From positions 5,140 to 69,139 of the forward strand of contig JAYSTS010000293.1 of NCBI GenBank assembly GCA_043719475.1: a stretch of 64,000 bases of DNA, in the 5' to 3' direction. Origin of the DNA: Gammaproteobacteria bacterium (lineage in GTDB: Bacteria > Pseudomonadota > Gammaproteobacteria > Pseudomonadales > Azotimanducaceae). The position numbers and the translations under genes were made by a program. Positions 6,526 to 55,922 of this stretch are shown here, in pieces (position 1 is the first letter of the stretch; every line of letters begins with the position of its first letter). The notes beneath the pieces were generated by a model. That model had not been told where the DNA came from, searched no databases, and worked only from the letters and a program-made list of their open reading frames with translations.

Positions 6526-6657
6526 GGAATGTCGGATTCAGAAAAAGGCGGCGATTATAGCCACTGGCGGGCAACTCACACTCCGGGAATTTCGGCTCGA
6601 CCAAATTCTCAAGAACCTGGCTAAACCGGCACTAGTTATCTACGGACTGACACGACG

Positions 6658-7632
6658 ATGACCTACACACTTTTCGGCGGCGAACTGAGTCTTTTTACGC
6701 GCAAACTGGAAGCGGCGATGAAATTCACGGGTCTACCGTTTGATTGCGTTGACAAGAACCACGCGAACCGCGAACTCCTGGAACTTCGTTCCGGAACCCA
6801 TCAGGTACCCGTCCTGCAGACGCCAGAGAACTGGGTACTTGCGGATACCACACCCATCATCGAGCTGCTCGATTCACGGATCGGAACTCGTCGACTTTTT
6901 CCCGAGGGTGCGATGGGCGCACTGGTTCATGTGTTGGAAGAGCATTTCGATGAGTGGATCGCCCGGACTTTGGTGCACTACCGCTGGCATTACCCGGCAA
7001 GCGCTGATTTCGCCGCCTCACGAATGGCCAACGGTGACGAATCGATCGCCCGTCGAATGCTTGACTGGGGACCGCGTGCCTGTCGGGCAACGGGCACGGA
7101 ATCACTCCTTCAGCAACGCGCTGCCGAAGCCGAGTATGAACGAATGCTGGTTGCCGCTGAGGCGCAACTGACGCAGACCGCTTTCCTCCTGGGTGATCGC
7201 CCAACGGCTCTGGATTGCATCGTGCTCGGTGGGCTGCGCGCGCATACGAACATGGATCCGGACCCAAAACGAATCGTGGCGGGCTTCCCCACGGTACTCG
7301 ACTGGTGTGAACGACGAGCCGATACATGGGATGGGTACGGAGAGCTTGCGTCAATCGACGACCCGACAGACTTCGCCGTTCACACTCTGGAAGAAATGCA
7401 TTCAACCTATGTGCCGTACATGCAGGGCATGAGATCTGCCCTTGCCGCTGGAGCCAAGGCTTGTCAGCTTGAAATCTATGGCGAGACCGTCAGCTACCTG
7501 ACGCGGGCCTATCCCGAAAAGTCACGGAAAATGGTCTCAAACCGAATCGCGCGACTCACAGGAACCGCGCGCAAGGACGCCCATGCCTTTCTCGATCAAT
7601 GGAAACTCACGGAGGTATTTGGCGCCGACTGA
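6658..7632 (+). CDS. glutathione S-transferase family protein with C-terminal extension
   Basis: Thioredoxin-like N-domain (THQVPVLQTPENWVLADTTPIIELL) and a GST_C-like segment (FLLGDRPTALDCIVLGGL). About 100 extra C-terminal residues. Confidence 0.55.
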   Translation: MTYTLFGGELSLFTRKLEAAMKFTGLPFDCVDKNHANRELLELRSGTHQVPVLQTPENWVLADTTPIIELLDSRIGTRRLFPEGAMGALVHVLEEHFDEWIARTLVHYRWHYPASADFAASRMANGDESIARRMLDWGPRACRATGTESLLQQRAAEAEYERMLVAAEAQLTQTAFLLGDRPTALDCIVLGGLRAHTNMDPDPKRIVAGFPTVLDWCERRADTWDGYGELASIDDPTDFAVHTLEEMHSTYVPYMQGMRSALAAGAKACQLEIYGETVSYLTRAYPEKSRKMVSNRIARLTGTARKDAHAFLDQWKLTEVFGAD

Positions 7633-7747
7633 ACTGCTCCAGACCGGCTGTGAGACTCGCGTCAGTCTGGGATTCGGACCCATAGTGTAGAATTCCCGCC
7701 GCCAATCGCAGACCACTAATCAGTCTTCAACATGCTTGGGCTCAAGA

Positions 7748-9310: not shown

Positions 9311-9315
9311 TTACC

Positions 9316-10485
9316 ATGTGGTCTTGTCTATCATTCGGAGCGGGCGTTCGCGGTTTGCTCACCGGATTGTTTCTGGGGCTTGGCTCGCTGGGCACAGCAC
9401 CCGCGATGGCAGCACCAGCGAATGACCAGGAGCAAGCCAACCAGGCCCTCAAAGTCATCGTCGGTGAACTCAACCAGCTCGATCGCTGGCTGAATGATGC
9501 CGAGCAGAAACAAGCCGGCTTGCAGAAAGAGCTTGCCGGTCATGACCAGCGGGTGGCAGACGTATCCCGCGCACTGGCTTCGACAGACAAAAGTCTCCGC
9601 GACGGAGAGCAGGAAGTGGCAAGGCTTCAATCGGAGCGCTCCGATCTTGACCGGCAAAAAGAAGCGCAAGCCAGTCGAATTTCACGCCATATCAATGCGG
9701 CTTATCGACTGCAACGCCAGGACGTCGTCAGGGCGATGCTTAACGACGAGGCGCCTGCCGATATGGATCGGATGCTGCGCTACCACCGTTACTTCAGCGA
9801 CGCTCGCATGGAATCCGTTCGTGCGTTTCAAACCACGCTGCACGCGATCACTGAAAACGAAGAAAGGCTTGGCGAAGAGCGGAGCACGCTTGAGAAAAAC
9901 CGTGAGGAATTGCTGGGCAAGCAGACCGATCTCGATTCACGGCGTCAGGAACGTACAGGACTGATTCGACAACTCGCACGAGATGTTGCAGATAAAAGCG
10001 CTCGGCAGAAACAGCTCAGCACAGACCGCCAACGACTGGAGCGACTACTCGCAGAATTGGCACGCCGATCACAAGAGCGGTCCAACACTGATTTTCGTGG
10101 TCGACGTGGAAACCTGCCTTTGCCCGTTTCCGGGAATCCGGTGTTCAGGTATGGCGCACCGCGCGCTGATGGTCGATTGCGATGGGAAGGTATGGTCTAT
10201 CGCTCAGAAAAAGGTGCACCGGTTCACGCTGTCCATCGGGGCACAGTTGTGTTCGCGAACTGGTTGCGCGGTTTCGGAATGCTCGCAATCGTCGACCACG
10301 GCAATGGATTTCTGACTTTGTATGGCTACGTAGACGGGCTCAACAAGAACGAAGGTGACGCCGTGGAAAGCGGTGAAGTAATCGCCTATGCGGGACAAAG
10401 CGGCGGACAGCCATTTGACGGCGTCTATTTCGAGATCCGCCACAAGGGAATTGCAATCGACCCCCGCCCCTGGCTGCGCAAGTAG
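9316..10485 (+). CDS. envC: murein hydrolase activator EnvC-like (M23/LytM domain)
   Basis: Signal peptide, long Q/E/R-rich coiled coil, and a C-terminal LytM domain (GFLTLYGY, YFEIRHKG). Follows gpmI. Confidence 0.85.
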   Translation: MWSCLSFGAGVRGLLTGLFLGLGSLGTAPAMAAPANDQEQANQALKVIVGELNQLDRWLNDAEQKQAGLQKELAGHDQRVADVSRALASTDKSLRDGEQEVARLQSERSDLDRQKEAQASRISRHINAAYRLQRQDVVRAMLNDEAPADMDRMLRYHRYFSDARMESVRAFQTTLHAITENEERLGEERSTLEKNREELLGKQTDLDSRRQERTGLIRQLARDVADKSARQKQLSTDRQRLERLLAELARRSQERSNTDFRGRRGNLPLPVSGNPVFRYGAPRADGRLRWEGMVYRSEKGAPVHAVHRGTVVFANWLRGFGMLAIVDHGNGFLTLYGYVDGLNKNEGDAVESGEVIAYAGQSGGQPFDGVYFEIRHKGIAIDPRPWLRK

Positions 10486-11639
10486 TGCATCGCCCAGCAG
10501 TACTGTTGGTCGCAACACTGTGCATGGCAACAGGCATGCTCCTTGGTGTAATGCTTCAACAAGTTCACCCGCTGTCGTCCCGCAACGATCAAAAATTACT
10601 GTTGGATCAGACGATCGAATACGTCACAACGCATTACGTGGATGAAGTAACGCAGCGGCATCTGATTGACGGTGCCTTGACCGGATTGTTTGAAAGCCTT
10701 GATTCTCACTCGCGATTTCTGGGTGTGGATGCGATGCGGGAAATCGCGTCCGAGGCCCGAGGTCACTACGGTGGTGTGGGGCTGGAGGTTTCTCTGGTCG
10801 ACCAGTACTTCACGGTCATTCGCACCCTTCCCGGAACGCCCGCTGACAGCGCTGGCATCGAGCCAGGCGATCGACTCGCCGCCGTCGGGGGCGAGTCGTT
10901 ACGCGGCAAGCGCATCGGCGACGTCATCCAGATGCTGCGAGGCGCACCGGAAACCGATGTTGTCCTCGAAGTAAGACACGGAGAACACCGACGCTCCCTT
11001 CGACTTCGCAGACAGCGCATTGACACGATCTCGGTAGAAGGTGAGAAGATCAACCAGGATATGGGCGTCATTCGAATCTCTCTGTTCACTGACAAGACAG
11101 CCGACGAAGTCAAAGAAATTCTCGCGATTCTGGATAACGTTGCAACACCCCTCAGGGGGTTGATTCTGGATCTGCGGAACAACCCTGGAGGATTACTGAC
11201 CTCAGCAGTCGATGTCGCGGACCTGTTCCTCCCCAACGGACTGATCGTACGTACCCAGGGTCGCTCACCAGAAAGTACATCCAGATACGAAGCAACTGTC
11301 GGTGATATTGCACACAACCTGCCGCTTGCCATTCTCACTGACGGCGCCACGGCATCGGCTGCAGAAGTCGTCACTGGAGCCTTGCAGGACTCCAAACGCG
11401 CGGTCGTTATCGGGTCGACAACCTACGGCAAGGGCTCTGTTCAGACGTTGTTTGGTGTCGAAGGGAAGAGAGGCATCAAGTTGACCACAGCCCGCTACTA
11501 CACCCCGCGTGGCAAGGTGATCGATGGCAATGGCATCGAACCCGATGTCGATTGGACCGGTGATTACGGATCACTTCCTGCGTTCGCCGCCAGGACCCTG
11601 CACGATGTATCTACCTCGAGTGCATCTACCTCGCAGTGA
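10485..11639 (+). CDS. ctpA: carboxy-terminal processing peptidase, S41 family
   Basis: PDZ segment (GIEPGDRLAAVGG) and S41 core (LDLRNNPGGLL, GATASAAEVV, YGKGSVQT). GTG start overlaps the envC stop by 1 nt. Confidence 0.88.
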   Translation: MHRPAVLLVATLCMATGMLLGVMLQQVHPLSSRNDQKLLLDQTIEYVTTHYVDEVTQRHLIDGALTGLFESLDSHSRFLGVDAMREIASEARGHYGGVGLEVSLVDQYFTVIRTLPGTPADSAGIEPGDRLAAVGGESLRGKRIGDVIQMLRGAPETDVVLEVRHGEHRRSLRLRRQRIDTISVEGEKINQDMGVIRISLFTDKTADEVKEILAILDNVATPLRGLILDLRNNPGGLLTSAVDVADLFLPNGLIVRTQGRSPESTSRYEATVGDIAHNLPLAILTDGATASAAEVVTGALQDSKRAVVIGSTTYGKGSVQTLFGVEGKRGIKLTTARYYTPRGKVIDGNGIEPDVDWTGDYGSLPAFAARTLHDVSTSSASTSQ

Positions 11640-40686: not shown

Positions 40687-40924
40687 TTGGCAAGCTTGTT
40701 ATCCTGCACACTGCCTTCGCCAGCCGTCACAACATCCTTTTATGGGGTCGGCACGTCGGGCTCGATGTGCCGGTCGCAAGGAGAACTTTCGTGTCTGAAG
40801 ACGAACTGGATTTGATGCTATACCGCAATCGCGGAGATTGTGCTGCGACTGTTTTCCTGATGAAGGATGGCCCTGCCAACAATCGCATGTTCGTAAACCT
40901 GTGAAACCAGGACAATTCCACTCC

Positions 40925-42073
40925 ATGCCACGACATGCCGACAGATACAGCATCCGCAATGAGCGACAGTGTGTGCGATGCGTCATGGACTCATCCGATC
41001 CGATCATCACGTTCGACGCCATTGGCCAGTGCAACCATTGCACGAGTTGGTTCGCGCGCATGACAGAAGAGGTTCCTGACACCGCGAAGGCGGCTGGAGA
41101 ACTGCAGAGAATCGTCGAACGCATACAAGCAGAGGGCCGCAGGCAAGAGTATGACTGTGTCGCAGGTGTAAGCGGTGGCGTGGACAGTACCTACATCATC
41201 TATCAATTGCGACGGCTCGGTCTTCGGCCTCTGGCTGTACATTTTGACAACGGGTGGAACTCCGAACTTGCGGTTGCCAACATCAAGTCGGTCTTGGACC
41301 GCTTGGGCGTCGACCTTCATACTGAGGTGGTCGATTGGGAGGAGTTCCGCGGTCTGCAGCTCGCTTTTCTCAAGGCTTCTGTACCGAACAGCGAGATACC
41401 GACAGACCACGCCATTACCGCAACCCTGGTTACGACGGCAGAGAAAATCGGCACCCGTTTCGTCATCAATGGCAGCAACGTGATGACGGAAGGGATTCTC
41501 CCGATTGCCTGGGTTTACTACAGCCACGACCTACATCATCTAATGGCCATCCACCGACGGTTCGGAACCGGTCCACTTCGAACTTATCCACAGCTTACTC
41601 TACGGTCGTTCGCGAGTCGAATAGCTTCAGGTCGATACCGAATGGTCAATCTGCTCAACTATCTCGACTACAACCGGGCAGAAGCGATGCGTATCCTTAC
41701 GAAGGAAGCCGACTGGCGTGACTACGGTGGCAAGCACTTCGAGTCCATATACACGCGTTGGTATCAAGGTTACTACCTGATCGCCAAATTCGGCTTCGAC
41801 AAGCGCAAGGCGCACCTCTCGGCGCTGGTCTGTGCACAGCAGATCCCCCGCGAAGAGGCTCTGGACGAGCTCTCCCGTTCCCCCTACGAAGGACACGATC
41901 TGGATGCTGATACGGATTTCGTAGTTCGAAAGCTCGGCATCAGCCACGCATATCTGGCTGAGTTGATCGCGGCGCCGAACCGGAAACACACTGATTATCC
42001 GAACAGCGCCTATCTGATCGAGGGCTTGGCTGGACTTCGTCACTTCCTCCGTCGCACAGCCAAGCAAGTCTGA
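40925..42073 (+). CDS. N-acetyl sugar amidotransferase (WbpG/WbuX type), paralog 1
   Basis: CVRCVMDSSDPIITFDAIGQCNHC zinc-ribbon N-terminus, PP-loop SGGVDS and HFDNGWNSELA. The start is uncertain (40838 or 40925). Confidence 0.85.
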   Translation: MPRHADRYSIRNERQCVRCVMDSSDPIITFDAIGQCNHCTSWFARMTEEVPDTAKAAGELQRIVERIQAEGRRQEYDCVAGVSGGVDSTYIIYQLRRLGLRPLAVHFDNGWNSELAVANIKSVLDRLGVDLHTEVVDWEEFRGLQLAFLKASVPNSEIPTDHAITATLVTTAEKIGTRFVINGSNVMTEGILPIAWVYYSHDLHHLMAIHRRFGTGPLRTYPQLTLRSFASRIASGRYRMVNLLNYLDYNRAEAMRILTKEADWRDYGGKHFESIYTRWYQGYYLIAKFGFDKRKAHLSALVCAQQIPREEALDELSRSPYEGHDLDADTDFVVRKLGISHAYLAELIAAPNRKHTDYPNSAYLIEGLAGLRHFLRRTAKQV

Positions 42074-46596: not shown

Positions 46597-48030
46597 TCAC
46601 TCGAATCTACTCTCTCCAATTGGAGCATAAACACCAATCCCGTGCTCACGCTGCCACCCGCACGATACCAATAGCTGGTCGATGGCCCTACGATCTGGTT
46701 TGCCCGAGCCAGTTCGAGGAACTGCGTTGACGATGATGTACTCGCGAGGCAGTGCATGTGAATCAAAGTTTGCGCGCGCCGCGGCGCGCAACGACGGAAG
46801 ATCGAAGAATGAGCCCGCGTTCGGGACTATCAACGCACCGCTGACGACCAGGCCATTACGTTGGCGTACTGGAATCACGAAGGCATCTGCCAGAAGGCCC
46901 GTTCTCAACAGAGTCTCTCGCACCGCCAGCCCGCTAACTTTGGTCCCCGACACCTTGAACACATCGTCACTTCGCCCTGCCAGGTACAGATAGCCACTCG
47001 AATCCAGCCATCCGATATCCCCTGTTGGAAAACGGCTGTGCACGGTGATGGACTCATGCTGTCCGACATAATCGATCATCAACGTGCGCCCACTGGCATG
47101 AACCTCACCGAACTCCCCCGATGCAACGGCATTACCAGCATCATCGAGCACCTCGACTGACAATCCATCAATGGCGCGACCGACTGATCCAGGAAGTTGA
47201 GGACGGTCATCCGGGTGGAGAGAGGTGAAACGACCTGCGACTTCGGTCAAGCCATAGAAGACATGCAAACGGACCTGCGGCAGATTCCGGGTAATGATAT
47301 CTCTGCTAGAGGCTGGCAGATCGTCGCCCGAAGTCATCAGCCATCCAAGCGAGCTCTCTCCCAACAGTCCTTCAGCAAGCCACCGCGCCTGTAGCGGAGC
47401 GCCGCCAAATCCTGTCGGAGAGACTTGCCGAACGCGACTAACCAGATCCTTTGCAAGCAGTGGCCTGCCTATGGCTGTGAAACGAGCACCTGACACCAGA
47501 CATGCAAGGAAATGGCAGATGGCACTGGTGAAGTGGAACGGAATGTTGATCATGAGATGATCGTCAGGTGTCATTCCCAGGCGTTTCACGCTTGCTTGGG
47601 CATTTTCGAGAAGTGCCTGAGACGTCAAGCGGACGCCTTTTCGAGCTCCAGTGGAGCCACTTGTCAGAAGCACAGTACTTTCCACACGCTGGTCCGGATC
47701 AAGGGCCGGATTATCCTTTGCAAGAAGAATCTGGATTTCATCAATCGCAGCCGCAGAAAGTCCCGGCTCCACGGGGCAACAAATCCCGCCACTTACCCAG
47801 GTAGCACACATTTCCAGGAAAAACTCAGCAGTCTCACTGGCAACGATGAGTCGCCTCTGCCCTGTCACGTCACCGTTCTTTCTCAAGCCATCGGCACGTT
47901 GGTTGACTTGGTAGACGAACGCTGATGGACTCAGCTTTTGAGAAGCATCATCGATCCACCAGCTATGAGTCGACTTCGCAAGTCTTGCAAGCAATTGGGT
48001 CAGCATGATTGCACTCGAGCCATCACTCAA
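46597..48030 (-). CDS. adenylate-forming (ANL) ligase, DltA-like size
   Basis: Core motifs LLTSGSTGARKGV (A3), FYGLTE (A5), TGDIGWLD (A7), GRSDDVFKVSGTKV (A8) and PRTGSGKPDR (A10). 8-nt overlap with the upstream MBOAT gene. Confidence 0.85.
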   Translation of the reverse strand: MSDGSSAIMLTQLLARLAKSTHSWWIDDASQKLSPSAFVYQVNQRADGLRKNGDVTGQRRLIVASETAEFFLEMCATWVSGGICCPVEPGLSAAAIDEIQILLAKDNPALDPDQRVESTVLLTSGSTGARKGVRLTSQALLENAQASVKRLGMTPDDHLMINIPFHFTSAICHFLACLVSGARFTAIGRPLLAKDLVSRVRQVSPTGFGGAPLQARWLAEGLLGESSLGWLMTSGDDLPASSRDIITRNLPQVRLHVFYGLTEVAGRFTSLHPDDRPQLPGSVGRAIDGLSVEVLDDAGNAVASGEFGEVHASGRTLMIDYVGQHESITVHSRFPTGDIGWLDSSGYLYLAGRSDDVFKVSGTKVSGLAVRETLLRTGLLADAFVIPVRQRNGLVVSGALIVPNAGSFFDLPSLRAAARANFDSHALPREYIIVNAVPRTGSGKPDRRAIDQLLVSCGWQREHGIGVYAPIGESRFE

Positions 48031-49657
48031 AAATTCTCACGGGGATCATCATGATTCCTTTCCAGAATCGAAAATACACTTCAATGGCGGTTTTCGGATC
48101 TTCAATCTGGGCAAACGCGTGTCCCGCAGCAACCCAGGTGAGTGTGCCTAAACGCGCTGGCAGAGAGAGCACCTGATTGCGCCAACCGCGTTGCCACGAC
48201 GAAGCCTGGTTTTTCGACGCCATCGACTTACGACGCCAGCGAACGAGCGAAGACTCTATCGCTACCAGCACCCCGTGGTGAACGGCCCAGAGCATCCACG
48301 ACAACCCGATGCTGTGCCACATCCCGACGCCCAACATCACCATCATCGATGCAATCGCTGGACGTCGGGTTGACAGAAGCAAAGGCATGAAGATGTTGCG
48401 CATGCACCATCCGGACACGCTCATGTGCCATCTGCGCCAATAGTCCATGACGCTCCGCGCGAGAAACGGAAAATTGAAGTTCTCGGGAGCAGACCAGCCC
48501 AACAACCGACTCAGACCAATCGCGATATCAGAGTAAGCAGAAAAGTCGATATAGACGTAGGCAAATGCAATGAACAGAAAGACCACAGCAGCCAAAGGAT
48601 CTGACTGATCCGAACCGAACACGGCAAGCGCAATACCTTCATCGGACCACAACAGCGGGAACAAGAGTGCATCAGCTATAACCAGCTTCTTGAATACCCC
48701 CCAGCCAACTCGTCGACTGCCAGAAACACATGCATCTACCGTTACGCGTTCGCTTCTTGCGCCCCGGAAGCGCTCGAGAGTATCGACGGGTCCAGCTGCG
48801 ATGGACGCAGGGAACAAGACAAAAAAGAGGAACTCTTCAAACGTCACGTCGCGTTGCTGGTTCCGGTACCAACGAATTTGCGTATCGACTACCCGAATCA
48901 CGATGTACGAAATGCCGAGCGGCAACAGGAGTTCGAAGCCTCCTGGATTGGCGAAGACATTTTCAATTCCAGTAGCCGCATACTTGGCCGCAAACAACAC
49001 TACTGCCGCCCCAGCCAGCGAAGCAGCAAGTTGTGTGAACTCTCCCGGTGGATATCGGGTTCCTAGGTAATGTAGTACGTACAGCAGCGCAACGATGGTC
49101 ACAGCAAATACAGGCTGCAACCAGGCCAATAAGCCAAGGGTCCCTGCGAGTAGAACGCGACGTTGCAGTATGGGCCTGCTCACGACAAGCCAACTGAGCG
49201 GAATCATCAGCACAATACCGATGAACAGTACGGACAGCCCCCCCGACGCTGCAGTCGTCCATTGATGACGAAGCACAACAGACTGAATTCCCTCAACGCG
49301 AACCGGATTTCGCGCGGTGATGTAGACCGTAGTCTTGTCCGGTACGCTTACCAGCAAGCGACACATCTTTGGTTCTGGTCGACATGTCGGCCAAGCACCA
49401 TTGACTCCGATCCGGATGCCTAAGTCCGCACTTGTGACGCCCTCGATGTCCAGCGCGAAAAGACGTGTCGCAGAAACAGACCGTAGTCGACCGACGAGCA
49501 CATCGCCTGTATCCAGTTGCAGCGGCCAGGTGATCGCTGAACTGTCATCAATAAGTTGGTATTCGACCTCAACCTTGTCACGCAGCACTAAAGCGAGGGC
49601 TAAAAAAACCAACCAGACGAGTATGCAGAGCAGCGTAGTTTTATTGGCAAGTTCCAA
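48023..49657 (-). CDS. MBOAT-family O-acyltransferase (DltB/AlgI-like) with N-terminal extension
   Basis: YWRRWHMSVSGWCMRNIFMPL and MWHSIGLSWMLWAVHHG contain the conserved MBOAT histidines. About 150 extra N-terminal residues follow one TM helix. Confidence 0.85.
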   Translation of the reverse strand: MELANKTTLLCILVWLVFLALALVLRDKVEVEYQLIDDSSAITWPLQLDTGDVLVGRLRSVSATRLFALDIEGVTSADLGIRIGVNGAWPTCRPEPKMCRLLVSVPDKTTVYITARNPVRVEGIQSVVLRHQWTTAASGGLSVLFIGIVLMIPLSWLVVSRPILQRRVLLAGTLGLLAWLQPVFAVTIVALLYVLHYLGTRYPPGEFTQLAASLAGAAVVLFAAKYAATGIENVFANPGGFELLLPLGISYIVIRVVDTQIRWYRNQQRDVTFEEFLFFVLFPASIAAGPVDTLERFRGARSERVTVDACVSGSRRVGWGVFKKLVIADALLFPLLWSDEGIALAVFGSDQSDPLAAVVFLFIAFAYVYIDFSAYSDIAIGLSRLLGWSAPENFNFPFLARSVMDYWRRWHMSVSGWCMRNIFMPLLLSTRRPAIASMMVMLGVGMWHSIGLSWMLWAVHHGVLVAIESSLVRWRRKSMASKNQASSWQRGWRNQVLSLPARLGTLTWVAAGHAFAQIEDPKTAIEVYFRFWKGIMMIPVRIFE

Positions 49658-49660
49658 TGG

Positions 49661-49909
49661 TCACCTGCTGCGGCTCTGGATCTGCCGGACGATGCGCTCG
49701 ATGCTGTCCATGTCTTCCAGGCCTATATCAAACGCTGAAAAAGTGACCGCCCATAGTGATTCGATGAATTCGAGAATGGACAAGAGGTCGATACTGTCGA
49801 GCAGGCCGCTTGAAAACAGCGGATCCTCGTCCGCCAACGACGAGTCCAATCCCATTTCCCGTGTGAGAAACTCGCGAATCTGCAGACTCGGTGTTTGCAA
49901 GTTTGTCAT
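49661..49909 (-). CDS. acyl/peptidyl carrier protein (DltC-like)
   Basis: 82 aa and acidic. GLLDSIDLLSILEFIE provides the phosphopantetheine-attachment serine context. Confidence 0.8.
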   Translation of the reverse strand: MTNLQTPSLQIREFLTREMGLDSSLADEDPLFSSGLLDSIDLLSILEFIESLWAVTFSAFDIGLEDMDSIERIVRQIQSRSR

Positions 49910-50985
49910 GTGCTTGATCGTCTTCCCGTTCGTTCAATGATATCGCCAATGCGATCGGCAACCAGCACGGAGATCTTGGCGCGGCCAGATTCGAGCAGAT
50001 GCAGCGGATCCGCAAAATCTTCAGCGAGAAGCCCATCAACGTCGCGCAAGTCGATAACCTCGGTCAGTTCGGAGAGACGCTTCATCGCACCGCGTTCAAT
50101 CACGTCAAGCTGATGAGCAGTTATCGCCATCGTCTCCGTTGGGTCTCGTGGGAACATCATCAAGACAGGATGGAACCCGCGTGTAACCGACCGTTCGATG
50201 AAGCGGGCGTAAACTGCTTCCGCAAGTTGATGATTCTGTTGGACGAGTGGGCGCAACTCAGCGTGTGCAATGGCAACACTCGCCTGCTTTTCCGATTCCA
50301 GCTGTCTGGATTCAACAGAATAGAAATTTCTCTGCGCGATCATCGGTCGCAAGCACACCTCTCGCTCCGCCTGGGCAAGGAGGTTTAGCCAATCGCAATC
50401 GCGTTGATCGAGGTAGTTGGCAATGACCGCAGAGTTCCGGATTAGCGACGGCGTCAAGGCGACCTCCAAACGGGTGCCAAGTGATGCGCTATCGAGTACG
50501 GAAGTCCAGTCCAGGTGTGCTATCCGTGGTCTTCGAACAAGCGCGTCCAGATCCCGACCAGACTCGACAAGATTCTGCCAACTCAGCTGCAACGCAACGA
50601 CTGTCCCGTGGGGAGCATCCAATGTGTCAATAATCGCCACGGCTTCGATAGGAGAAAAACTGCTGTAAGCGAGGTTTCGGACATCGACCGGGGCGGCAAC
50701 AGCGGTTTGCAGCAACTCAGCCAGATGCAAATCGTCGGGGACACCTTCTCGCGTGACCGAGCCACCGAGCAAGACCAATGCTTGACCAGACGGATGAAAG
50801 CGATGCAGCACGAATTCGACGTAGGACGCATCATCCACATATCGACGTGGCAGGTCCCACTGAGCAACGTACGTGTTGAGAACGGACCCGAAATAGTCGA
50901 GCAGTAGCAGCGTCGTGATCAGTCCGAGCAGCGGAGGAAGCGTGCCCGATGCAACTTCAACCACACTTTTTTTCTCACGCATCAA
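49906..50985 (-). CDS. membrane-anchored hypothetical protein, putative DltD/SGNH-like acyltransferase
   Basis: N-terminal TM helix (LPPLLGLITTLLLLDYF). LVLLGGSVTREG is a possible block-I Ser and C-terminal DPLHLLESG is a possible DxxH block V. 4-nt overlap with the ACP gene. The assignment rests on context and weak motifs. Confidence 0.4.
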   Translation of the reverse strand: MMREKKSVVEVASGTLPPLLGLITTLLLLDYFGSVLNTYVAQWDLPRRYVDDASYVEFVLHRFHPSGQALVLLGGSVTREGVPDDLHLAELLQTAVAAPVDVRNLAYSSFSPIEAVAIIDTLDAPHGTVVALQLSWQNLVESGRDLDALVRRPRIAHLDWTSVLDSASLGTRLEVALTPSLIRNSAVIANYLDQRDCDWLNLLAQAEREVCLRPMIAQRNFYSVESRQLESEKQASVAIAHAELRPLVQQNHQLAEAVYARFIERSVTRGFHPVLMMFPRDPTETMAITAHQLDVIERGAMKRLSELTEVIDLRDVDGLLAEDFADPLHLLESGRAKISVLVADRIGDIIERTGRRSST

Positions 50986-51115
50986 AACCCGGCGTAACGG
51001 AAAGCCTCAACGGATACGTTGAGTATCAAAGCAAAGGAAACTGCTAGAAATCCGGCAGTCCAGATAAGGTATTGCGCGACACCTCGCAGAAGCAATCCTA
51101 CTCGTGCCATTGCTG

Positions 51116-52564
51116 TCAACTTCCCGCCTGCGCGGCCTGCACACGTCGACGCTTCTCTTCAGTAGAGATCTCATAACCAACCGGAACGTACTCCCGACCT
51201 GCAGCCAGTAGGCCTTGCTCTGCATTACGAGCTGCTCGAATGCGCTTCGCCTGGTCGATAAAATTCTGGCCTTGGCCGACCAGCGAGCTCCAGTTCAGAA
51301 CTTCACCTTGGTGTTCGAACCCGAGTAGAGGTCGGTGCAGGATCGTGTGATGCCGAACCATGGATGTAAGCATCCGGAGATGCAGATTCTGGCTCGCCTC
51401 GATTTCAGAAAACACCAATGGCGCCGTCAGCAGATCGCCGATTGCATAGTCATCACGTCGCAGGTAACGGGTACGCTCGATGAATCGCTGATACACGGAT
51501 TCCAGTTTTTGCTTGTTGCGCGGACTGTATGCTGCCAGCAAAACTGCATCCGGTTTAATCAAAGCGCCATGTTCCCTCGCGAACAAGTCTCGTCGACTGG
51601 TGACGATGCAACGATACTCTTCGGTCGGACCCGTCCTCACCGGGCAGATGTCGCACGCGATACAACGATGCACGTCCTCTCGCGTGAAGTCACTGAGCTG
51701 AATCGTAAGTCCGGGTTGTTCCAGCTGTTCAACGAATCGATTCGCCAACATGAAACCCCGGCGATCTTCGGAGTCCTGCAACAACCAGATTGCAACATGA
51801 GCATGTGCTGGGCCAGTCTTTTTTCCTGCCTCTAGTCCTTTTACGACTCGTGCCACCCGGCGTCCTGTATCTATGGAAGTTTCCAGACCATAGTTGTCAC
51901 GGGCAGCCGTACCAACATCTCCGGCCACAACCGTTCCGCCGTATTGCGATGTTGATCCCGCATCATTGCCAACACCGAGCATGCCAAGATTGATCATGTC
52001 CAGCAGTTGGTAAATCAATGTTGTTTCCTGGCCGCCATTGCGTTTCGCTCCTACGGCCAAACCACCAAAGACGCGGCCTCTGAGATGGGCCTGCAACTCG
52101 GGGTCACCATATAAAAAGTGGACAAACTCCTGTGCGACCGAGCTACGATCCCCAAAATAGACCGGTCCGGAAAGGACGAGGCCATCGGCCTCCATCAACA
52201 AACTCCGCAATTCACCCAGATTTCTCGGCTCTCCCGTCTCCGGAAAGTGATCTGACAGATTGACGCAGGCGATCTCTACTTTTTCCTGCAAAGCTCCCCA
52301 TAACGCTGCAGCCAGCGCAACTTCGCAATTACTCAGCCCGCGAAGGCCGGTCGACCTTCGTAGGTCGCGATACATCTCGTCAAAAGTGACTCCCTTCGCC
52401 CTTGCTGCGTTGAATGCTTCGAGCAGTGCTCCGGACTCAGTCTCGAGGAAAGCCTTCAATGAATTCAGGTCAGAACATCGAGCGAGCTCAACAGATAAAT
52501 CGCGCAGACCGATCCCATGTCGTGATCCTCGAAGACTGGCGGACAGTCCGACAATGAGTGGCAT
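51116..52564 (-). CDS. tandem flavodoxin-fold (NADPH-dependent FMN reductase / iron-sulfur flavoprotein-like) protein
   Basis: The first half has PLIVGLSASLRGS and ADGLVLSGPVYFGDRSS. The second half has a second flavodoxin-like unit with the cysteine cluster CIACDICP-x10-C (codons at 51608-51664). The start was trimmed to MPLIVG. Confidence 0.55.
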   Translation of the reverse strand: MPLIVGLSASLRGSRHGIGLRDLSVELARCSDLNSLKAFLETESGALLEAFNAARAKGVTFDEMYRDLRRSTGLRGLSNCEVALAAALWGALQEKVEIACVNLSDHFPETGEPRNLGELRSLLMEADGLVLSGPVYFGDRSSVAQEFVHFLYGDPELQAHLRGRVFGGLAVGAKRNGGQETTLIYQLLDMINLGMLGVGNDAGSTSQYGGTVVAGDVGTAARDNYGLETSIDTGRRVARVVKGLEAGKKTGPAHAHVAIWLLQDSEDRRGFMLANRFVEQLEQPGLTIQLSDFTREDVHRCIACDICPVRTGPTEEYRCIVTSRRDLFAREHGALIKPDAVLLAAYSPRNKQKLESVYQRFIERTRYLRRDDYAIGDLLTAPLVFSEIEASQNLHLRMLTSMVRHHTILHRPLLGFEHQGEVLNWSSLVGQGQNFIDQAKRIRAARNAEQGLLAAGREYVPVGYEISTEEKRRRVQAAQAGS

Positions 52565-52876
52565 AGTCTGTATTCCGTAACCGGTGTTCCTCATTATAGG
52601 CAGGGAGCACACAAGCTAGCCAGAATCTGTGGTCTGGCAGCGACGACAAAGGCCAATCAGGGGAGTCCAACGCGAACGAAGCCACACTCCATCGCTCGAT
52701 GTCGGGAAAATGGCGGCGCGCCTCCAGCCCAATCGGCAAGTTCTATAGGTCCCGACATTTCCCAATGCGTTCGTCACGAAAGCAGCCCACTCGACCAGCA
52801 AGACACAGCTCATCCGGGAAATCTGTACAGTATGCTTGCAGCCATCAAGAGCACAGGACGTGAATCTCCAGAGAAT

Positions 52877-54022
52877 ATGTCTGATCAATCCTCACAAATC
52901 TGCCTCCGATGCATCATGGATACCTCCGACCCGCAAATCGCGTTCGATGAAGAGGGAGTCTGTAACCATTGTCGCTTCTTCGATACTGAGCTCTCAAAGA
53001 CTTGGCATCCGAACCAGCAGGGAAGAGAAGAACTCAACTCGCTCGTCGAACGAATCAAGTCAGAAAATCGCGGCCGACCGTACGATTGCGTCATCGGACT
53101 GAGCGGCGGCATAGACAGTTCCTACCTGGCCTACGTGGCGCGCCGTGAACTCGGACTGCGTCTCCTGGCCATACACGTTGATGGAGGGTGGAATTCAGAG
53201 CTGGCCGTCAGGAATATTGAAGGCATCGTCACTCGACTGGGTATCGACCTCCATACACAGGTCGTTGATTGGGAGGAAATGCGCGATCTGCAACGTGCAT
53301 TTCTGCGCGCTGGTCTGGCCAACCAGGACGTACCGCAGGATCATGCCTTCATCTCCGGTCTCTATTCACAGGCGGTACAGCACGGAATCCGCCACGTGCT
53401 GAGTGGGGGCAACGTTGCCACGGAGTCGATCCTACCTGGCGAGTGGGCCTATAACGCCATGGATTTGCGGCATCTGCGTGCTATCCACAAGCGTTTTGGA
53501 GAAGCCCCTTTGCGCACATTTCCGACGGTGAACTTTTTTCAGTACTACTTCTGGTATCCGGTCGTTAAACGCATGACGGTATTGCGCCCCCTCAATTTCC
53601 TGCCGTATGTCCGGGACGATGCGATCCGAACGCTCGAGCGGGAAACAGGATTCACTTACTACGGCGGAAAACACTTCGAATCACGGTTCACAAAATGGCA
53701 GCAGCTTTATTATCGACCGTACAAATTTGGCTACGACGAGCGGCGGGCATATTTATCGAGCCTGATACTCTCTGGCCAGATGGACCGGCAAACGGCACTC
53801 GATGCTATCGCCGAACCCGGTTACTCCGACGCACAGTTACGCGAAGACAGCGATTTCGTTTGTAACAAGTTGGGGTTTTCGAGCGAGGAATTCACGCAAA
53901 TCCTCAACCTTCCACCAAGGACATTTCGTGACTACCCCTCCAATCACCATCTGTTCAGCTTCAAGGACAAGCTCAAGTCGCGGCTTGGTGAGTTCGGTGT
54001 CACGTTTCGGAGAAGGTCTTGA
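52877..54022 (+). CDS. N-acetyl sugar amidotransferase (WbpG/WbuX type), paralog 2
   Basis: CLRCIMDTSDPQIAFDEEGVCNHC, PP-loop SGGIDS and HVDGGWNSELA. Roughly half the residues are identical to paralog 1 by eye. Confidence 0.85.
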   Translation: MSDQSSQICLRCIMDTSDPQIAFDEEGVCNHCRFFDTELSKTWHPNQQGREELNSLVERIKSENRGRPYDCVIGLSGGIDSSYLAYVARRELGLRLLAIHVDGGWNSELAVRNIEGIVTRLGIDLHTQVVDWEEMRDLQRAFLRAGLANQDVPQDHAFISGLYSQAVQHGIRHVLSGGNVATESILPGEWAYNAMDLRHLRAIHKRFGEAPLRTFPTVNFFQYYFWYPVVKRMTVLRPLNFLPYVRDDAIRTLERETGFTYYGGKHFESRFTKWQQLYYRPYKFGYDERRAYLSSLILSGQMDRQTALDAIAEPGYSDAQLREDSDFVCNKLGFSSEEFTQILNLPPRTFRDYPSNHHLFSFKDKLKSRLGEFGVTFRRRS

Positions 54023-54092: not shown

Positions 54093-55922
54093 ATGTGCGG
54101 GATAGCAGGTTACATCGCCCGTCGAGGGCGAGCAGTGGATCGGGAACGGCTGACAGCGATGTGTGCTGCGGTAAGTCATCGTGGGCCAGATGGCACGGGA
54201 CTGACGATCACCGGAAGTGTCGGGCTGGGACACCGACGCCTCTCAATCTTTGATCTCTCGGCCGACGGGGCGCAGCCAATGCTCGATCCACAGTCGGGTC
54301 GCAGCATCATCTTCAATGGGGCCATTTACAATTACCTGGAATTGCGTGCGGACCTCGCCAACAGGGGGCGACGCTTTTACACCGGCACCGATACCGAGGT
54401 CATTCTCGCGGCTTACGACACGTGGGGTTCAGACTGTGTGAACCACTTCAATGGCATGTGGGCATTCGCGATCCACGACCCGCAGGCAGGCATCGTGTTC
54501 TGCTCCCGCGATCGCTTTGGCATCAAACCGTTTTACTATGTCGAGACCACCGATTGTCTTGCTTTCGGTTCAGAAATTCGTCAGTTGTTACCACTGTTGC
54601 CTGCTGTCCGTGTGTGCCATGAGGTATTGATCGATTTCGTTTTTTCCGATCGCTGCGAACACCGGGAAGACACGTTTTTCGACTCCGTCCGCAAGCTGCC
54701 AGCGGGTTGCAATCTGACCTATCGGCTGGATCAGGACCGTCATTTCCAGGAACGGTACTATCGTCTTGAACGACGAACGGATCTCGAGAAGATCTCCCTC
54801 GACGATGCCATCGCTTTGTACAAAGACGGATTGGAAGACGCTGTGCGCTTGCGTCTGCGCTCAGATGCGCCGCTTGGGACTTGCCTCAGCGGTGGTCTGG
54901 ACAGTTCCAGTGTCGCTAGCCTGGCAGCAACTCTCTACCATCAGCCCGATGGAATGGCGTTCGCCGCTGTCACAGCGGTGAGCGAAGACCCGGACAATGA
55001 CGAATCGGCTTATGCTCGCTCGGTAGCCATTAATGCTGGTCTGCATTGGCTAACGACAAAGCCAGACTACGCAGCATTCGAGTCGTCCATCGAAGCAGTC
55101 GTTGAAGCCCAGGAAGAGCCCTTCGCCGGTCCTTCGATTTGTATGCAGTACTTTGTCATGCGCACCGCACGCGAGTCTGGACTGAAGGTATTGCTTGATG
55201 GGCAGGGCGGTGACGAAACGCTATTGGGTTACGAACGCTATTTCGCCGCCCACTATCTCGCTATACGACGCCGTCACGGATGGCGGGCAATGATGAGCAG
55301 CATGCGTTCAAGTGCCAGACACAACGCTCGCATGTCGCCTCGAATAATTGCGGGATACCTCGCTTATTTTTCTTCGCCCCAAGCGCGCTATTGGCAATAC
55401 AAGCGACGCCATCACTACCTGACACAATCACCCGCCATCCCTGATCATCTGATCCGTTACGCAGAGGCCAGTCGTGACGAGTTTGAGCTGCAACGACTGG
55501 AAATCGAAACTACCAATCTGCCGGCTTTGTTGCGCTACGAAGACAAAAACGCCATGTGGCATGGGGTTGAAACGCGCCTGCCTTTTCTCGACTACCGTCT
55601 GGTCGAAACCGCACTGGCGTTACCTGGCGAGTACAAGGTAAGGGAGGGTTGGACCAAATACGTGCTGCGCAGAGGAATGTCCGGGATATTGCCGGACCAC
55701 ATCGCCTGGCGACGCGACAAGCGCGGTTTTGAAGCGCCAGAATCTATTTGGCTGGCTCGTCACTCGAATCAAATGGAAAATATGGTCAGAAATTCAAGGG
55801 TTCTGGCGTCTGTGTGCGACACCAGTCGATTACATTCCGCGTACAGCTCACTCGATCCAGGCACACGGTGGCGCCTCTACAGCGTCGCTTTATGGGAGGA
55901 GTGCTTCAGCGTCTCTGCGTGA
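54093..55922 (+). CDS. asparagine synthase (glutamine-hydrolysing) family amidotransferase
   Basis: MCGIAGY Ntn glutaminase start and the PP-loop CLSGGLDSS. 609 aa. This is the WbpS-like class seen in O-antigen loci. Confidence 0.9.
   Translation: MCGIAGYIARRGRAVDRERLTAMCAAVSHRGPDGTGLTITGSVGLGHRRLSIFDLSADGAQPMLDPQSGRSIIFNGAIYNYLELRADLANRGRRFYTGTDTEVILAAYDTWGSDCVNHFNGMWAFAIHDPQAGIVFCSRDRFGIKPFYYVETTDCLAFGSEIRQLLPLLPAVRVCHEVLIDFVFSDRCEHREDTFFDSVRKLPAGCNLTYRLDQDRHFQERYYRLERRTDLEKISLDDAIALYKDGLEDAVRLRLRSDAPLGTCLSGGLDSSSVASLAATLYHQPDGMAFAAVTAVSEDPDNDESAYARSVAINAGLHWLTTKPDYAAFESSIEAVVEAQEEPFAGPSICMQYFVMRTARESGLKVLLDGQGGDETLLGYERYFAAHYLAIRRRHGWRAMMSSMRSSARHNARMSPRIIAGYLAYFSSPQARYWQYKRRHHYLTQSPAIPDHLIRYAEASRDEFELQRLEIETTNLPALLRYEDKNAMWHGVETRLPFLDYRLVETALALPGEYKVREGWTKYVLRRGMSGILPDHIAWRRDKRGFEAPESIWLARHSNQMENMVRNSRVLASVCDTSRLHSAYSSLDPGTRWRLYSVALWEECFSVSA

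What the first reader, a model, noticed from the sequence alone, without database searches (positions are those of the whole stretch)
51116..52564. Tandem flavodoxin-fold protein with a compact Cys cluster heading the acylation operon
The first gene of the minus-strand operon encodes two fused flavodoxin / NADPH-FMN-reductase-like halves.

- The second half carries CIACDICP-x10-C (codons at 51608-51664), which resembles the compact 4Fe-4S motif of iron-sulfur flavoproteins.
- A redox flavoprotein has no expected role in a Dlt-type pathway or in ManNAc3NAcA synthesis.
- Its position is 130 bp upstream of the DltD-like gene and divergent from a WbpG paralog. That suggests either redox tailoring of the acyl group on the carrier protein or an unrelated hitch-hiker.
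Basis: partly seen in the sequence, partly recalled or inferred. Interest (0 to 1): 0.6.

Follow-up and report, generated by a model that had tools for sequence, protein, structure and literature searches.

The report
Iron-sulfur flavoprotein of glycan acylation cassettes
The gene encodes a real, highly conserved two-domain flavoprotein with a four-cysteine iron-sulfur motif that travels across many bacterial phyla with enzymes that activate a carboxylic acid and hang it on surface sugars; it probably prepares that still-unknown acid, and no published function exists for it.

Summary
Window 51116-52564(-) encodes a 482-aa protein. Its N half is a WrbA/FMN-reductase domain. Its C half, invisible to Pfam, is predicted with high confidence to be a second flavodoxin-like fold. 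That half carries C301-x2-C304-x2-C307-P-x10-C319 at exactly 51608-51664. The four cysteines are kept in essentially all 287 full-length homologues checked.

The "130-bp gap" is not a gap. It encodes a 42-codon DltX-like acyl-shuttle microprotein ending FRYAGF. It starts 5 nt after the flavoprotein stop and overlaps the DltD-like start, so six genes are tightly packed with no convincing terminator.

The family is large and spread over more than 10 phyla. It is almost always next to a carboxylate-activating enzyme. One lineage, which includes the window, pairs with an AMP-ligase plus carrier protein, delivered by MBOAT/DltD/DltX, an AAC(3)-like, a GNAT or a hexapeptide transferase. The other lineage pairs with an ATP-grasp ligase plus an enolase-superfamily epimerase.

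Sugar-pathway genes and the divergent WbpG-like gene are not conserved partners. The linked ligases lack the Asp that binds an alpha-amino group.

Best reading: an FMN/[4Fe-4S] oxidoreductase that makes or tailors the non-amino acid to be attached. Substrate and reaction remain unknown. It is not a hitch-hiker.

The parts
51116..52564 (-). Flavoprotein gene F (482 aa plus stop), first gene of the cassette
   Evidence: Full-length AlphaFold model has pLDDT 91.3 and pTM 0.92. More than 1200 homologous clusters in one collection and 336 50%-identity clusters in another.
51815..52564 (-). N domain (res 1-250): WrbA/FMN_red-like and presumed FMN-binding. An ~85-residue helical insert with invariant G76-x-x-N79-x-E81 (GLSNxE in most sequences) lies between strands 1 and 2.
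   Evidence: Pfam PF03358 E 1e-10. WrbA PDB hits. Secondary structure. Invariant columns.
52520..52543 (-). Loop S8-A-S10-L-R12-G-S-R15 after strand 1: FMN-phosphate-loop type motif
   Evidence: S10, L11, R12 and R15 are invariant in 50 sequences. The role is inferred from the FMN_red family.
52139..52165 (-). PVYFGDRSS (res 134-142), the FMN_red 'PxY' loop
   Evidence: P134-R140 and S142 are invariant. The sequence was read.
52025..52051 (-). GAKRNGGQE (res 172-180), WrbA-type GGQE(T) loop
   Evidence: Invariant except A173. It aligns to hGGQETT of WrbA.
51119..51814 (-). C domain (res 251-482): second, diverged flavodoxin-like fold. The loop after strand 1 reads LQD instead of an FMN loop. 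An Arg-rich invariant block ERxRYxRR spans res 363-370.
   Evidence: AlphaFold model of the C half, pLDDT 90.3. Foldseek hits to ArsH, SP1951, WrbA and SsuE at prob 1.0. Invariants.
51608..51664 (-). C301-x2-C304-x2-C307-P308-x10-C319: presumed [4Fe-4S] site, in the loop between strand 2 and the next helix of the C domain
   Evidence: Invariant. Kept in essentially all 287 homologues.
50982..51110 (-). DltX-like microprotein gene (42 codons, one TM helix, C-terminal FRYAGF matching FxYxxF). The ATG lies 5 nt after the F stop, and its stop overlaps the ATG of the next gene.
   Evidence: Sequence. Homologous micro-ORFs ending FRYxxF occur in 16 ligase/MBOAT loci, 11 of them within 200 bp of F. 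Motif and mechanism are described in PMC12148441.
49906..50985 (-). DltD-like membrane-anchored protein (359 aa)
   Evidence: No Pfam or NCBIfam hit. It groups with the equivalent genes of other loci (clusters 27/29/43/57; an HMM finds 16).
49661..49909 (-). Carrier protein (82 aa)
   Evidence: NCBIfam ACP_for_OlsHI E 4e-11 and DltC E 2e-4. Homologues are present in 18/18 MBOAT-type and 5/5 NAT-type loci.
48023..49657 (-). MBOAT (DltB-like, 544 aa)
   Evidence: Pfam MBOAT E 1e-14. TIGR04091 DltB E 4.5e-39, below its cut-off.
46597..48030 (-). Adenylate-forming ligase (477 aa). It has Thr where amino-acid-activating enzymes have Asp235.
   Evidence: Pfam AMP-binding hit. Alignment to LgrA A domains puts FHFTSAI opposite FSFDGSA and YIFDISV. 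The same T (or M) is present in all F-linked ligases with a carrier protein.
52832..54022 (+). Divergent N-acetyl-sugar amidotransferase (WbuX/WbpG family). It is a neighbour, not a conserved partner.
   Evidence: TIGR03573 E 3e-87. The family is within 10 kb of F in only 9 of 76 loci.

Best explanation
F is a cytoplasmic two-domain oxidoreductase that arose by fusing two FMN-reductase/WrbA-type domains and then dividing their cofactors. The N domain keeps the FMN site. The C domain has lost it and instead carries a fully Cys-ligated, Isf-like [4Fe-4S] cluster and an Arg-rich pocket.

F is an integral, co-translated member of a glycan-acylation cassette: F, DltX-like, DltD-like, carrier protein, MBOAT, ligase.

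Its proposed job is to make or redox-tailor the carboxylic acid that the cassette attaches. This acid is a non-alpha-amino acid, probably with an epimerisable alpha-carbon. F would act before the acid is adenylated by the ligase, loaded on the carrier protein, passed by the MBOAT to the Tyr of the DltX-like peptide, and passed by the DltD-like protein to the surface glycan.

Shown: the gene, the two folds (predicted), the conserved motifs, the gene packing, and the conserved linkage to acid-activating enzymes.

Inferred: cofactor content, electron path (NAD(P)H to FMN to/from the cluster), that the substrate is the acid rather than the sugar, and the direction of the redox step.
For: Folds and motifs.

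Gene packing:
- 5-nt gap from F to the DltX-like gene.
- 1-nt overlap between the DltX-like and DltD-like genes.
- 4-nt overlap between the DltD-like gene and the carrier protein gene.
- 8-nt overlap between the MBOAT and ligase genes.
- Terminator-like hits number 10 against 7.9 expected by chance, and none is convincing.

Linkage across the family:
- Of 76 loci from more than 10 phyla, 26 have an AMP-ligase and 35 have an ATP-grasp plus enolase-type gene next to F.
- A carrier protein is present in all 23 MBOAT-type and NAT-type ligase loci, often directly after F.
- Two of the three remote (~35% identical) family members looked up also sit beside a ligase and carrier protein.
- The transferase changes between loci: MBOAT/DltD/DltX, AAC(3)-like, GNAT fusion, hexapeptide, ATP-grasp. 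F stays.
- No sugar-pathway family is in more than about 40% of loci.

Co-distribution: in 400 genomes of the class, F is in 2. The close ligase orthologue (E <= 1e-60) is in the same 2.

Nature of the acid:
- F-linked ligases have T or M at the Asp235 position.
- Alpha-carbon epimerases recur. An enolase-superfamily MLE type is in 35 loci. A methylmalonyl-CoA-epimerase-like VOC protein lies beside the ligase in 2 loci (L002, L092) and about 2.7 kb from F in a third, L020.

Mean column identity is 54% across phyla, which points to one conserved chemistry.
Against: - No cofactor, substrate or activity has been measured for any member, and no paper on the family was found.
- A cluster with four Cys ligands suits electron transfer. 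F could therefore be a reductase for a partner protein rather than a small-molecule enzyme.
- About 12 of 76 loci with full flanks show neither a ligase nor an ATP-grasp near F. One remote member sits among transposases with unrelated genes.
- Most plausible one-step reductions of common acids are normally done by NAD-dependent dehydrogenases, not by Fe-S flavoproteins.
- I had no model coordinates, so the FMN-to-cluster distance was not checked.
Confidence: 0.5

Rival explanations
1. F acts on the sugar acceptor (a nucleotide sugar or lipid-linked glycan), for example by making the position that is later acylated. It does not act on the acid.
For: F always lies in glycan clusters rich in amino-sugar genes such as DegT, Gfo/Idh/MocA, NeuB and acetyltransferases. 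The Arg-rich invariant block ERxRYxRR could bind a nucleotide diphosphate.
Against: The sugar pathways differ from locus to locus (2,3-diamino-uronic, nonulosonic and others). None is present in more than ~40% of loci, while an acid-activating enzyme is present in ~80%. In MBOAT-type cassettes acylation happens outside the cytoplasm, far from F. Immediate adjacency is to the carrier protein, ligase or DltX-like gene.
Confidence: 0.15
2. F is a dedicated electron donor (a flavodoxin/ferredoxin-reductase-like module) for another enzyme of the locus, such as a B12-radical-SAM methyltransferase or another Fe-S enzyme.
For: A fully ligated [4Fe-4S] cluster plus FMN is a classic electron-transfer pair. 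B12-binding radical SAM genes occur in some loci (cluster 24).
Against: The radical SAM family is near F in only 5 of 76 loci. The window cassette has no enzyme known to need electrons; ligase, carrier protein, MBOAT, DltD-like and DltX-like do not. The constant partners, ligase or ATP-grasp, are not redox enzymes.
Confidence: 0.12
3. F modifies the acyl group while it is bound to the carrier protein.
For: The carrier protein gene directly follows F in many loci, with a 0-100 bp gap. From my own knowledge, on-carrier redox tailoring of an O-antigen acyl group has been proposed for the tetronate branch of the Vibrio cholerae O1 rfb cluster.
Against: The 35 ATP-grasp/enolase loci have no carrier protein within 6 kb, yet F is about 45% identical to the window protein there with the same invariant residues. 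The same chemistry must therefore work without a carrier.
Confidence: 0.13
4. F is an unrelated stress or quinone reductase (WrbA-like) that merely sits at the edge of the locus as a hitch-hiker.
For: The best sequence matches are to WrbA NAD(P)H:quinone oxidoreductases.
Against: WrbA equivalog scores are far below the cut-off: 23.5 bits against 141. Linkage is conserved across phyla and gene orders, with translational coupling. F shares a patchy distribution with the ligase, both in 2 of 400 genomes. There is a single copy in the genome.
Confidence: 0.04

Closest known systems
Iron-sulfur flavoprotein Isf (Methanosarcina thermophila prototype; FMN_red/COG0655 lineage)
   Same: Both have a flavodoxin-like FMN-reductase fold and a compact C-x2-C-x2-C...C motif thought to hold a [4Fe-4S] cluster (motif as described in PMC3164229). 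From my own knowledge, the motif sits in the equivalent place in Isf, the loop after strand 2.
   Different: Isf is a single ~190-aa domain carrying both FMN and the cluster, with spacing x5-7 to the fourth Cys. It is found mainly in anaerobes and is linked to O2/H2O2 reduction. F is a fused pair of domains with FMN motifs only in the first and the cluster only in the second. Its spacing is x11. It lives in aerobes too and is tied to glycan gene clusters. No significant sequence hit to any solved Isf-like chain was found.
WrbA NAD(P)H:quinone oxidoreductase
   Same: The N domain aligns over PVYFGDR, GGQETT and the xYG loop. It is the top Foldseek match.
   Different: F scores 23.5 bits against the equivalog cut-off of 141. 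F has an ~85-residue helical insert and a second Fe-S domain. WrbA is a stand-alone stress protein.
ArsH / SsuE / SP1951-type FMN reductases
   Same: They are the best structural matches of the C domain: prob 1.0, TM 0.5-0.57.
   Different: Identity is only 11-13%. The C domain lacks their FMN-phosphate loop (LQD instead) and has the Cys motif.
Flavone reductase FLR (PDB 7d38), an FMN-dependent ene-reductase of gut bacteria
   Same: It has the same C-x2-C-x2-C-x11-C spacing at the same place in an FMN_red-like fold (alignment). It also appears in Foldseek (rank 46). It shows that this fold can reduce C=C bonds.
   Different: The profile match is not significant (E = 1). The FLR paper does not discuss an Fe-S cluster. 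This is a lead only.
Dlt pathway (DltX-DltA-DltB-DltC-DltD) for D-alanylation of teichoic acids
   Same: The downstream genes reproduce every Dlt part, including a microprotein with the FxYxxF acyl-shuttle motif.
   Different: The canonical dlt operon has no flavoprotein. The ligase here lacks the Asp that binds the amino group of D-Ala. The host is Gram-negative, as judged from its LPS-type locus and class placement.

Membership tests
NADPH-dependent FMN reductase superfamily (Pfam PF03358, flavodoxin-like fold) | HMM match above the gathering score | tested here: met
   The N half scores 41.9 bits against a cut-off of 24. The window's C half has no hit by itself; 6 of 52 homologous C halves do, best E 2.8e-5.
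NADPH-dependent FMN reductase superfamily (Pfam PF03358, flavodoxin-like fold) | Three-layer alpha/beta/alpha flavodoxin-like fold | tested here: met
   This is a predicted structure only. The N half matches WrbA. The C half matches ArsH, SP1951, WrbA and SsuE.
NADPH-dependent FMN reductase superfamily (Pfam PF03358, flavodoxin-like fold) | Binds FMN and oxidises NAD(P)H | not testable with these tools
   Only sequence motifs are available: the S10/R12/R15 loop, PVYFGDR and GGQE, all invariant.
WrbA (NAD(P)H:quinone oxidoreductase type IV) | NCBIfam equivalog score above the cut-off | tested here: not met
   NF002999 scores 23.5 bits against 141. TIGR01755 scores 18.2 bits against 132.5.
Iron-sulfur flavoprotein (Isf) | Compact motif C-x2-C-x2-C-x5-7-C | tested here: not met
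   The first three Cys match. The fourth comes after 11 residues in 236 of 268 homologues, with a range of 8-14 and longer in remote members. The motif definition is from PMC3164229.
Iron-sulfur flavoprotein (Isf) | One domain that carries both FMN and the cluster | tested here: not met
   There are two domains. The FMN motifs are only in the N half and the Cys motif only in the C half.
Iron-sulfur flavoprotein (Isf) | Holds a [4Fe-4S] cluster | not testable with these tools
   The four Cys are invariant. Confirmation needs EPR, UV-visible spectra or iron analysis.
Dlt-type MBOAT/SGNH/carrier-protein acylation pathway (for the cassette F belongs to) | Microprotein with C-terminal FxYxxF | tested here: met
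   The micro-ORF at 50982-51110(-) ends FRYAGF. Fifteen homologous micro-ORFs were found in related loci.
Dlt-type MBOAT/SGNH/carrier-protein acylation pathway (for the cassette F belongs to) | Adenylating ligase, carrier protein and MBOAT | tested here: met
   Pfam and NCBIfam hits.
Dlt-type MBOAT/SGNH/carrier-protein acylation pathway (for the cassette F belongs to) | Ligase specific for D-alanine (Asp binding the alpha-amino group) | tested here: not met
   Thr stands at the Asp235-equivalent position. T or M is found there in all F-linked ligases.
Dlt-type MBOAT/SGNH/carrier-protein acylation pathway (for the cassette F belongs to) | DltD (SGNH-like) transferase | tested here: inconclusive
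   The 359-aa membrane-anchored protein has no Pfam or NCBIfam hit. It is conserved in position and sequence among the cassettes. Its fold was not predicted here.
Dlt-type MBOAT/SGNH/carrier-protein acylation pathway (for the cassette F belongs to) | A flavoprotein is part of the pathway | tested here: not met
   The canonical pathway as described has five parts and no redox enzyme (PMC12148441). F is an addition.

The most novel reading that the evidence does not exclude
F defines an unrecognised, phylum-spanning route to a new glycan substituent. It would be an FMN/[4Fe-4S] ene- or keto-acid reductase that creates an alpha-chiral, non-amino carboxylic acid. Where needed, that acid is inverted by an enolase-type or methylmalonyl-CoA-epimerase-type enzyme. 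It is then attached to surface glycans by whichever delivery module the lineage has recruited: a Dlt-like MBOAT relay, N-acyltransferases, or an ATP-grasp ligase. On this reading the acid, not the transferase, is the conserved invention.
Probability: 0.3. Interest if true: 0.7.

Novelty: new variant of a known kind. Interest (0 to 1): 0.55.

Why it matters
Surface-glycan acyl groups decide phage, immune and antimicrobial-peptide recognition. Here one very conserved redox enzyme is the constant element of at least five differently built acylation modules in more than ten phyla, including Pelagibacteraceae, Flavobacteriales, Planctomycetota, Nitrospinota and a Legionella pneumophila LPS locus. 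No function is published for it.

Identifying its product would name an unknown and apparently widespread glycan substituent. It would explain why a Gram-negative Dlt-like relay needs a redox step. It would also give a rare example of an Isf-type domain pair that has split its FMN and Fe-S cofactors between two fused copies.

The question is directly testable with a three-protein reconstitution: F, the ligase and the carrier protein.

Tried and rejected
1. Sequence-only proof of a duplication. hhalign of the N against the C half gives only 16% probability. The claim rests on the predicted fold instead.
2. A profile of the C half against PDB sequences gave nothing significant: HypB E 0.4, flavone reductase E 1.
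3. Literature. None found a paper on this family. The two Isf papers I wanted (PMC1112032, PMC100102) are not held.
4. WbpG/WbuX as the true partner was rejected: it is near F in 9 of 76 loci.
5. A radical-SAM partner was rejected as general: 5 of 76 loci.
6. An enolase-type gene elsewhere in the window's genome was not found (an empty answer is weak evidence).
8. The promoter/terminator scan was uninformative, with counts at chance level.
9. One remote homologue (P0172) lies among transposases with unrelated genes, which says nothing either way.
10. Model coordinates are not exposed, so the FMN-to-cluster geometry could not be measured.
Full report
THE GENE

The minus-strand ORF 51116-52612 has an in-frame ATG at 52564. 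This gives 482 aa beginning MPLIVGLSASLRG. Homologues from many phyla start at the same place, so 52564 is the start.

There is one copy in the 4.67-Mb, 423-contig assembly.

The surrounding locus encodes a UDP-sugar 6-dehydrogenase, a Gfo/Idh/MocA oxidoreductase, a hexapeptide acetyltransferase, a DegT aminotransferase, a 2-epimerase, two WbuX/WbpG-type amidotransferases, an AsnB-like enzyme and glycosyltransferases.

TWO FLAVODOXIN-LIKE HALVES

N half:
- It matches Pfam FMN_red above threshold (res 78-200, E 1e-10).
- It aligns with WrbA over PVYFGDR, GGQETT and the xYGG loop.

C half:
- The window's own C half has no family hit. Only 6 of 52 homologous C halves touch FMN_red, best E 2.8e-5.
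- hhalign of N against C gives 16% probability, although it pairs the equivalent strand-3 segments.

Structure prediction settles the question as far as a model can:
- The full-length model has pLDDT 91.3 and pTM 0.92, with two beta-alpha-beta domains.
- The C half modelled alone (pLDDT 90.3) matches ArsH, SP1951, WrbA, SsuE, azoreductases and flavodoxins at probability 1.0 and TM 0.5-0.57.

The N domain carries an ~85-residue helical insert with the invariant G76-x-x-N79-x-E81 motif (GLSNxE). The C domain replaces the FMN-phosphate loop with an invariant Q263-D264 (LQD in the window). I therefore infer FMN only in the N domain.

THE CYSTEINE MOTIF

C301, C304, C307 (followed by P308) and C319 are encoded exactly at 51608-51664.
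- They are invariant in 27 and in 50 aligned sequences and in 52 C halves.
- Of 287 full-length homologues, including remote ones down to ~26% identity, 268 have C-x2-C-x2-C-x8-14-C, and 236 of these have x11.
- The other 19 nearly all keep C-x2-C-x2-C-P and a later Cys after a longer insert.

The motif lies in the long loop after strand 2 of the C domain. From my own knowledge, the compact Isf motif sits in the same place. The published Isf spacing is x5-7 (PMC3164229), so this is Isf-like rather than Isf.

Other invariant residues cluster in the C domain: D326, H332, D339, Y358-Q359, E363-R364-x-R366-Y367-x-R369-R370, R397, S401, R404, and a C-terminal Y459-x-P-x-G463-Y464. This is a strikingly basic set that suggests an anionic ligand.

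THE '130-BP GAP'

Five nucleotides after the F stop (TGA 51116-51118) an ATG at 51110 opens a 42-codon frame: MARVGLLLRGVAQYLIWTAGFLAVSFALILNVSVEAFRYAGF. Its TGA (50982-50984) overlaps the ATG of the DltD-like gene.

It has one hydrophobic helix and ends in FRYAGF, which fits the FxYxxF acyl-shuttle motif of DltX. In that system the Tyr receives the acyl group from the MBOAT and passes it to DltD (PMC12148441).

I tested the claim:
- Micro-ORFs ending F-R-Y-x-x-F occur in 16 ligase/MBOAT loci. In 11 of them they lie within 200 bp of F.
- They also occur in a remote relative's cassette and in the Legionella pneumophila locus.

The remaining junctions are equally tight:
- DltD-like to carrier protein: 4-nt overlap.
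- Carrier protein to MBOAT: 3-nt gap.
- MBOAT to ligase: 8-nt overlap.

Terminator-like hits are at chance level. The one inside the micro-ORF has a poor T tract.

The six genes therefore look like one operon.

THE FAMILY AND ITS COMPANY

F has more than 1200 homologous 90%-identity clusters and 336 50%-identity clusters. Nearly all are ~500 aa and are named only 'flavodoxin family protein' or 'multimeric flavodoxin WrbA'.

I analysed F-bearing loci from species-representative genomes. They cover Alpha-, Beta- and Gammaproteobacteria, Pelagibacteraceae, Bacteroidota, Planctomycetota, Nitrospinota, Verrucomicrobiota, Cyanobacteriota, Acidobacteriota, Gemmatimonadota, Omnitrophota, Bdellovibrionota and a Parcubacteria bin. 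ORFs were clustered and the neighbours tabulated.

Two main contexts emerge.

Type A (26 loci): an AMP-ligase near F.
- A carrier protein accompanies it in all 23 MBOAT-type and NAT-type loci.
- Delivery is by an MBOAT + DltD-like + DltX-like set (18 loci), an AAC(3)-like N-acyltransferase (5 loci), or a ligase-GNAT fusion (L058).

Type B (35 loci): an ATP-grasp ligase (PylC-like N domain) plus an enolase-superfamily protein.
- The enolase-type protein has the MLE-subgroup KxK/D/E/D/K pattern. Its best NCBIfam hits are o-succinylbenzoate synthase, N-acetyl-D-Glu racemase and L-Ala-D/L-Glu epimerase, all below their cut-offs.
- Gene order is shuffled but tight.
- No carrier protein lies within 6 kb (0 of 35).

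I found type B before seeing that other agents of this scan had described the trio in other genomes (e1-2403112, e1-4557192).

About 12 loci with full flanks show neither context.

Of three remote members (~35% identical) looked up, two again sit with a ligase and carrier protein. One has an MBOAT, a DltD-like gene, a micro-ORF and a methylmalonyl-CoA-epimerase-like gene. The other has a hexapeptide acyltransferase. The third sits among transposases with unrelated genes.

PHYLOGENY

In an IQ-TREE of 76 F proteins, all 35 type-B contexts fall in one clade of 48 rows with 100/100 support.

The window's protein falls outside that clade, among ligase-linked proteins. Its nearest relatives are from a Cellvibrio MAG and an Escarpia tubeworm symbiont, both with the same F - DltX - DltD - (carrier) - MBOAT - ligase order.

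Ligase contexts reappear inside the B clade (L058, L070, L073; L052 has both types). Partners have therefore been swapped repeatedly while F stayed.

DISTRIBUTION

In a sample of 400 genomes of the class, F occurs in two. The close ligase orthologue (E <= 1e-60) occurs in exactly those two, on the same contig. A third genome with only a distant ligase paralogue lacks F.

WHAT IS NOT A PARTNER

No sugar-pathway family is near F in more than ~40% of loci. WbuX/WbpG is near F in 9 of 76, NeuB in 9, the WbpB-like family in 13, and B12-radical SAM in 5. The divergent WbpG paralog in the window is therefore incidental.

CLUES TO THE ACID

- In the alignment with NRPS adenylation domains, the window ligase has FHFTSAI where amino-acid activators have F-x-F-D-x-S. 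That Asp (Asp235 in PheA numbering) binds the alpha-ammonium group; this is established A-domain knowledge.
- All F-linked ligases with a carrier protein have T or M at that position. The only ligases with D lie far from F. The acid is thus probably not an alpha-amino acid, unlike D-Ala in the Dlt pathway.
- Alpha-carbon epimerases recur. The enolase-type enzyme acts on free carboxylates and occurs in type B. A methylmalonyl-CoA-epimerase-like VOC protein acts on thioesters. It lies beside the ligase in L002 and L092 and about 2.7 kb from F in L020 (TIGR03081 E 4.6e-25, below its cut-off). This hints at an acid with an epimerisable alpha-stereocentre.

MECHANISM PROPOSED

F takes reducing equivalents through FMN in the N domain, presumably from NAD(P)H. 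It passes them to or from the [4Fe-4S] cluster of the C domain. In this way it reduces (or oxidises) a common anionic metabolite to an uncommon acid.

In the window's cassette the following steps would then occur:
1. The ligase adenylates the acid and loads it on the carrier protein.
2. The MBOAT moves it to the Tyr of the DltX-like peptide.
3. The DltD-like protein moves it to the glycan outside the cytoplasm.

Shown: the linkage and the motifs. Inferred: everything chemical.

I put about 0.5 on 'makes or tailors the acyl donor'. Within that, free acid is more likely than carrier-bound acid because type-B loci lack a carrier. The remainder goes to action on the sugar acceptor (0.15), on-carrier tailoring (0.13), electron donation to a partner (0.12) and hitch-hiking (0.04).

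COMPARISON WITH KNOWN SYSTEMS

F works like an Isf/WrbA-type flavoprotein, but it fails the Isf membership tests on spacing and on the single-domain architecture. It also fails the WrbA equivalog score.

The flavone reductase FLR (7d38) shares the x11 spacing and shows ene-reductase chemistry in this fold. The match is not significant (E = 1), and its paper does not mention an Fe-S cluster.

The canonical Dlt pathway has no flavoprotein.

No paper on this family was found.

VERDICT

The feature is real and conserved, it is an integral cassette member, and it is functionally uncharacterised. I class it as a new variant of a known kind. Interest is moderate to good because the constant redox enzyme points to an unidentified, widespread glycan substituent and the test is simple.

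Noticed in passing
window 50982-51110 (-): A 42-codon DltX-like micro-ORF ending FRYAGF is missed by ORF lists with a 60-aa floor. It fills the supposed 130-bp gap and is translationally coupled on both sides.
   Followed up: yes
L002:14302-14868 (-), L020:3233-3643 (-), L092:5202-5621 (+): A methylmalonyl-CoA-epimerase-like (VOC/glyoxalase-fold) gene occurs in three F/ligase/carrier cassettes. It is next to the ligase in L002 and L092 and about 2.7 kb from F in L020. It may be the thioester counterpart of the enolase-type epimerase of the ATP-grasp loci.
   Followed up: partly
L058:7563-9938 (+): A 791-aa fusion of an AMP-binding ligase with a GNAT acetyltransferase lies directly upstream of F. 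HisH/HisF-like genes and a WbuX-like gene follow. This is another way of delivering the acid.
   Followed up: partly
L081 (Legionella pneumophila GCA_045503595.1), 5613-11515: A nonulosonic-acid LPS locus of L. pneumophila carries carrier protein - ligase - 398-aa DltD-like - MBOAT - microprotein - F. A second MBOAT with a 412-aa partner lies further on, and IS elements sit at the edge.
   Followed up: partly
L011:3409-3570, L017:4299-4412, L019:1889-2098, L021:5881-6030: In one gammaproteobacterial sub-clade the DltX-like micro-ORF lies on the opposite strand, divergent from F, instead of inside the operon.
   Followed up: no
L044 and L045: A bin labelled Flavobacteriaceae and one labelled Alphaproteobacteria carry identical F proteins and identical gene order. 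This suggests a binning error or very recent transfer.
   Followed up: no
window 40838-42073 (+) and 52832-54022 (+): There are two paralogous WbuX/WbpG-type N-acetyl-sugar amidotransferases in one locus (TIGR03573 E 2.7e-77 and 3.2e-87). An AsnB-like amidotransferase lies at 54093-55922.
   Followed up: partly
L035:324-1595, L036:5605-6936: A 423-443-aa protein with no Pfam or NCBIfam hit (cluster 81) directly precedes F in two loci that lack both ligase and ATP-grasp. It may be a further, unrecognised acid-activating partner.
   Followed up: no
window 52565-52831: A 267-bp divergent intergenic region lies between F and the WbuX-like gene. The consensus scan found no sigma-70-like site in it.
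   Followed up: partly
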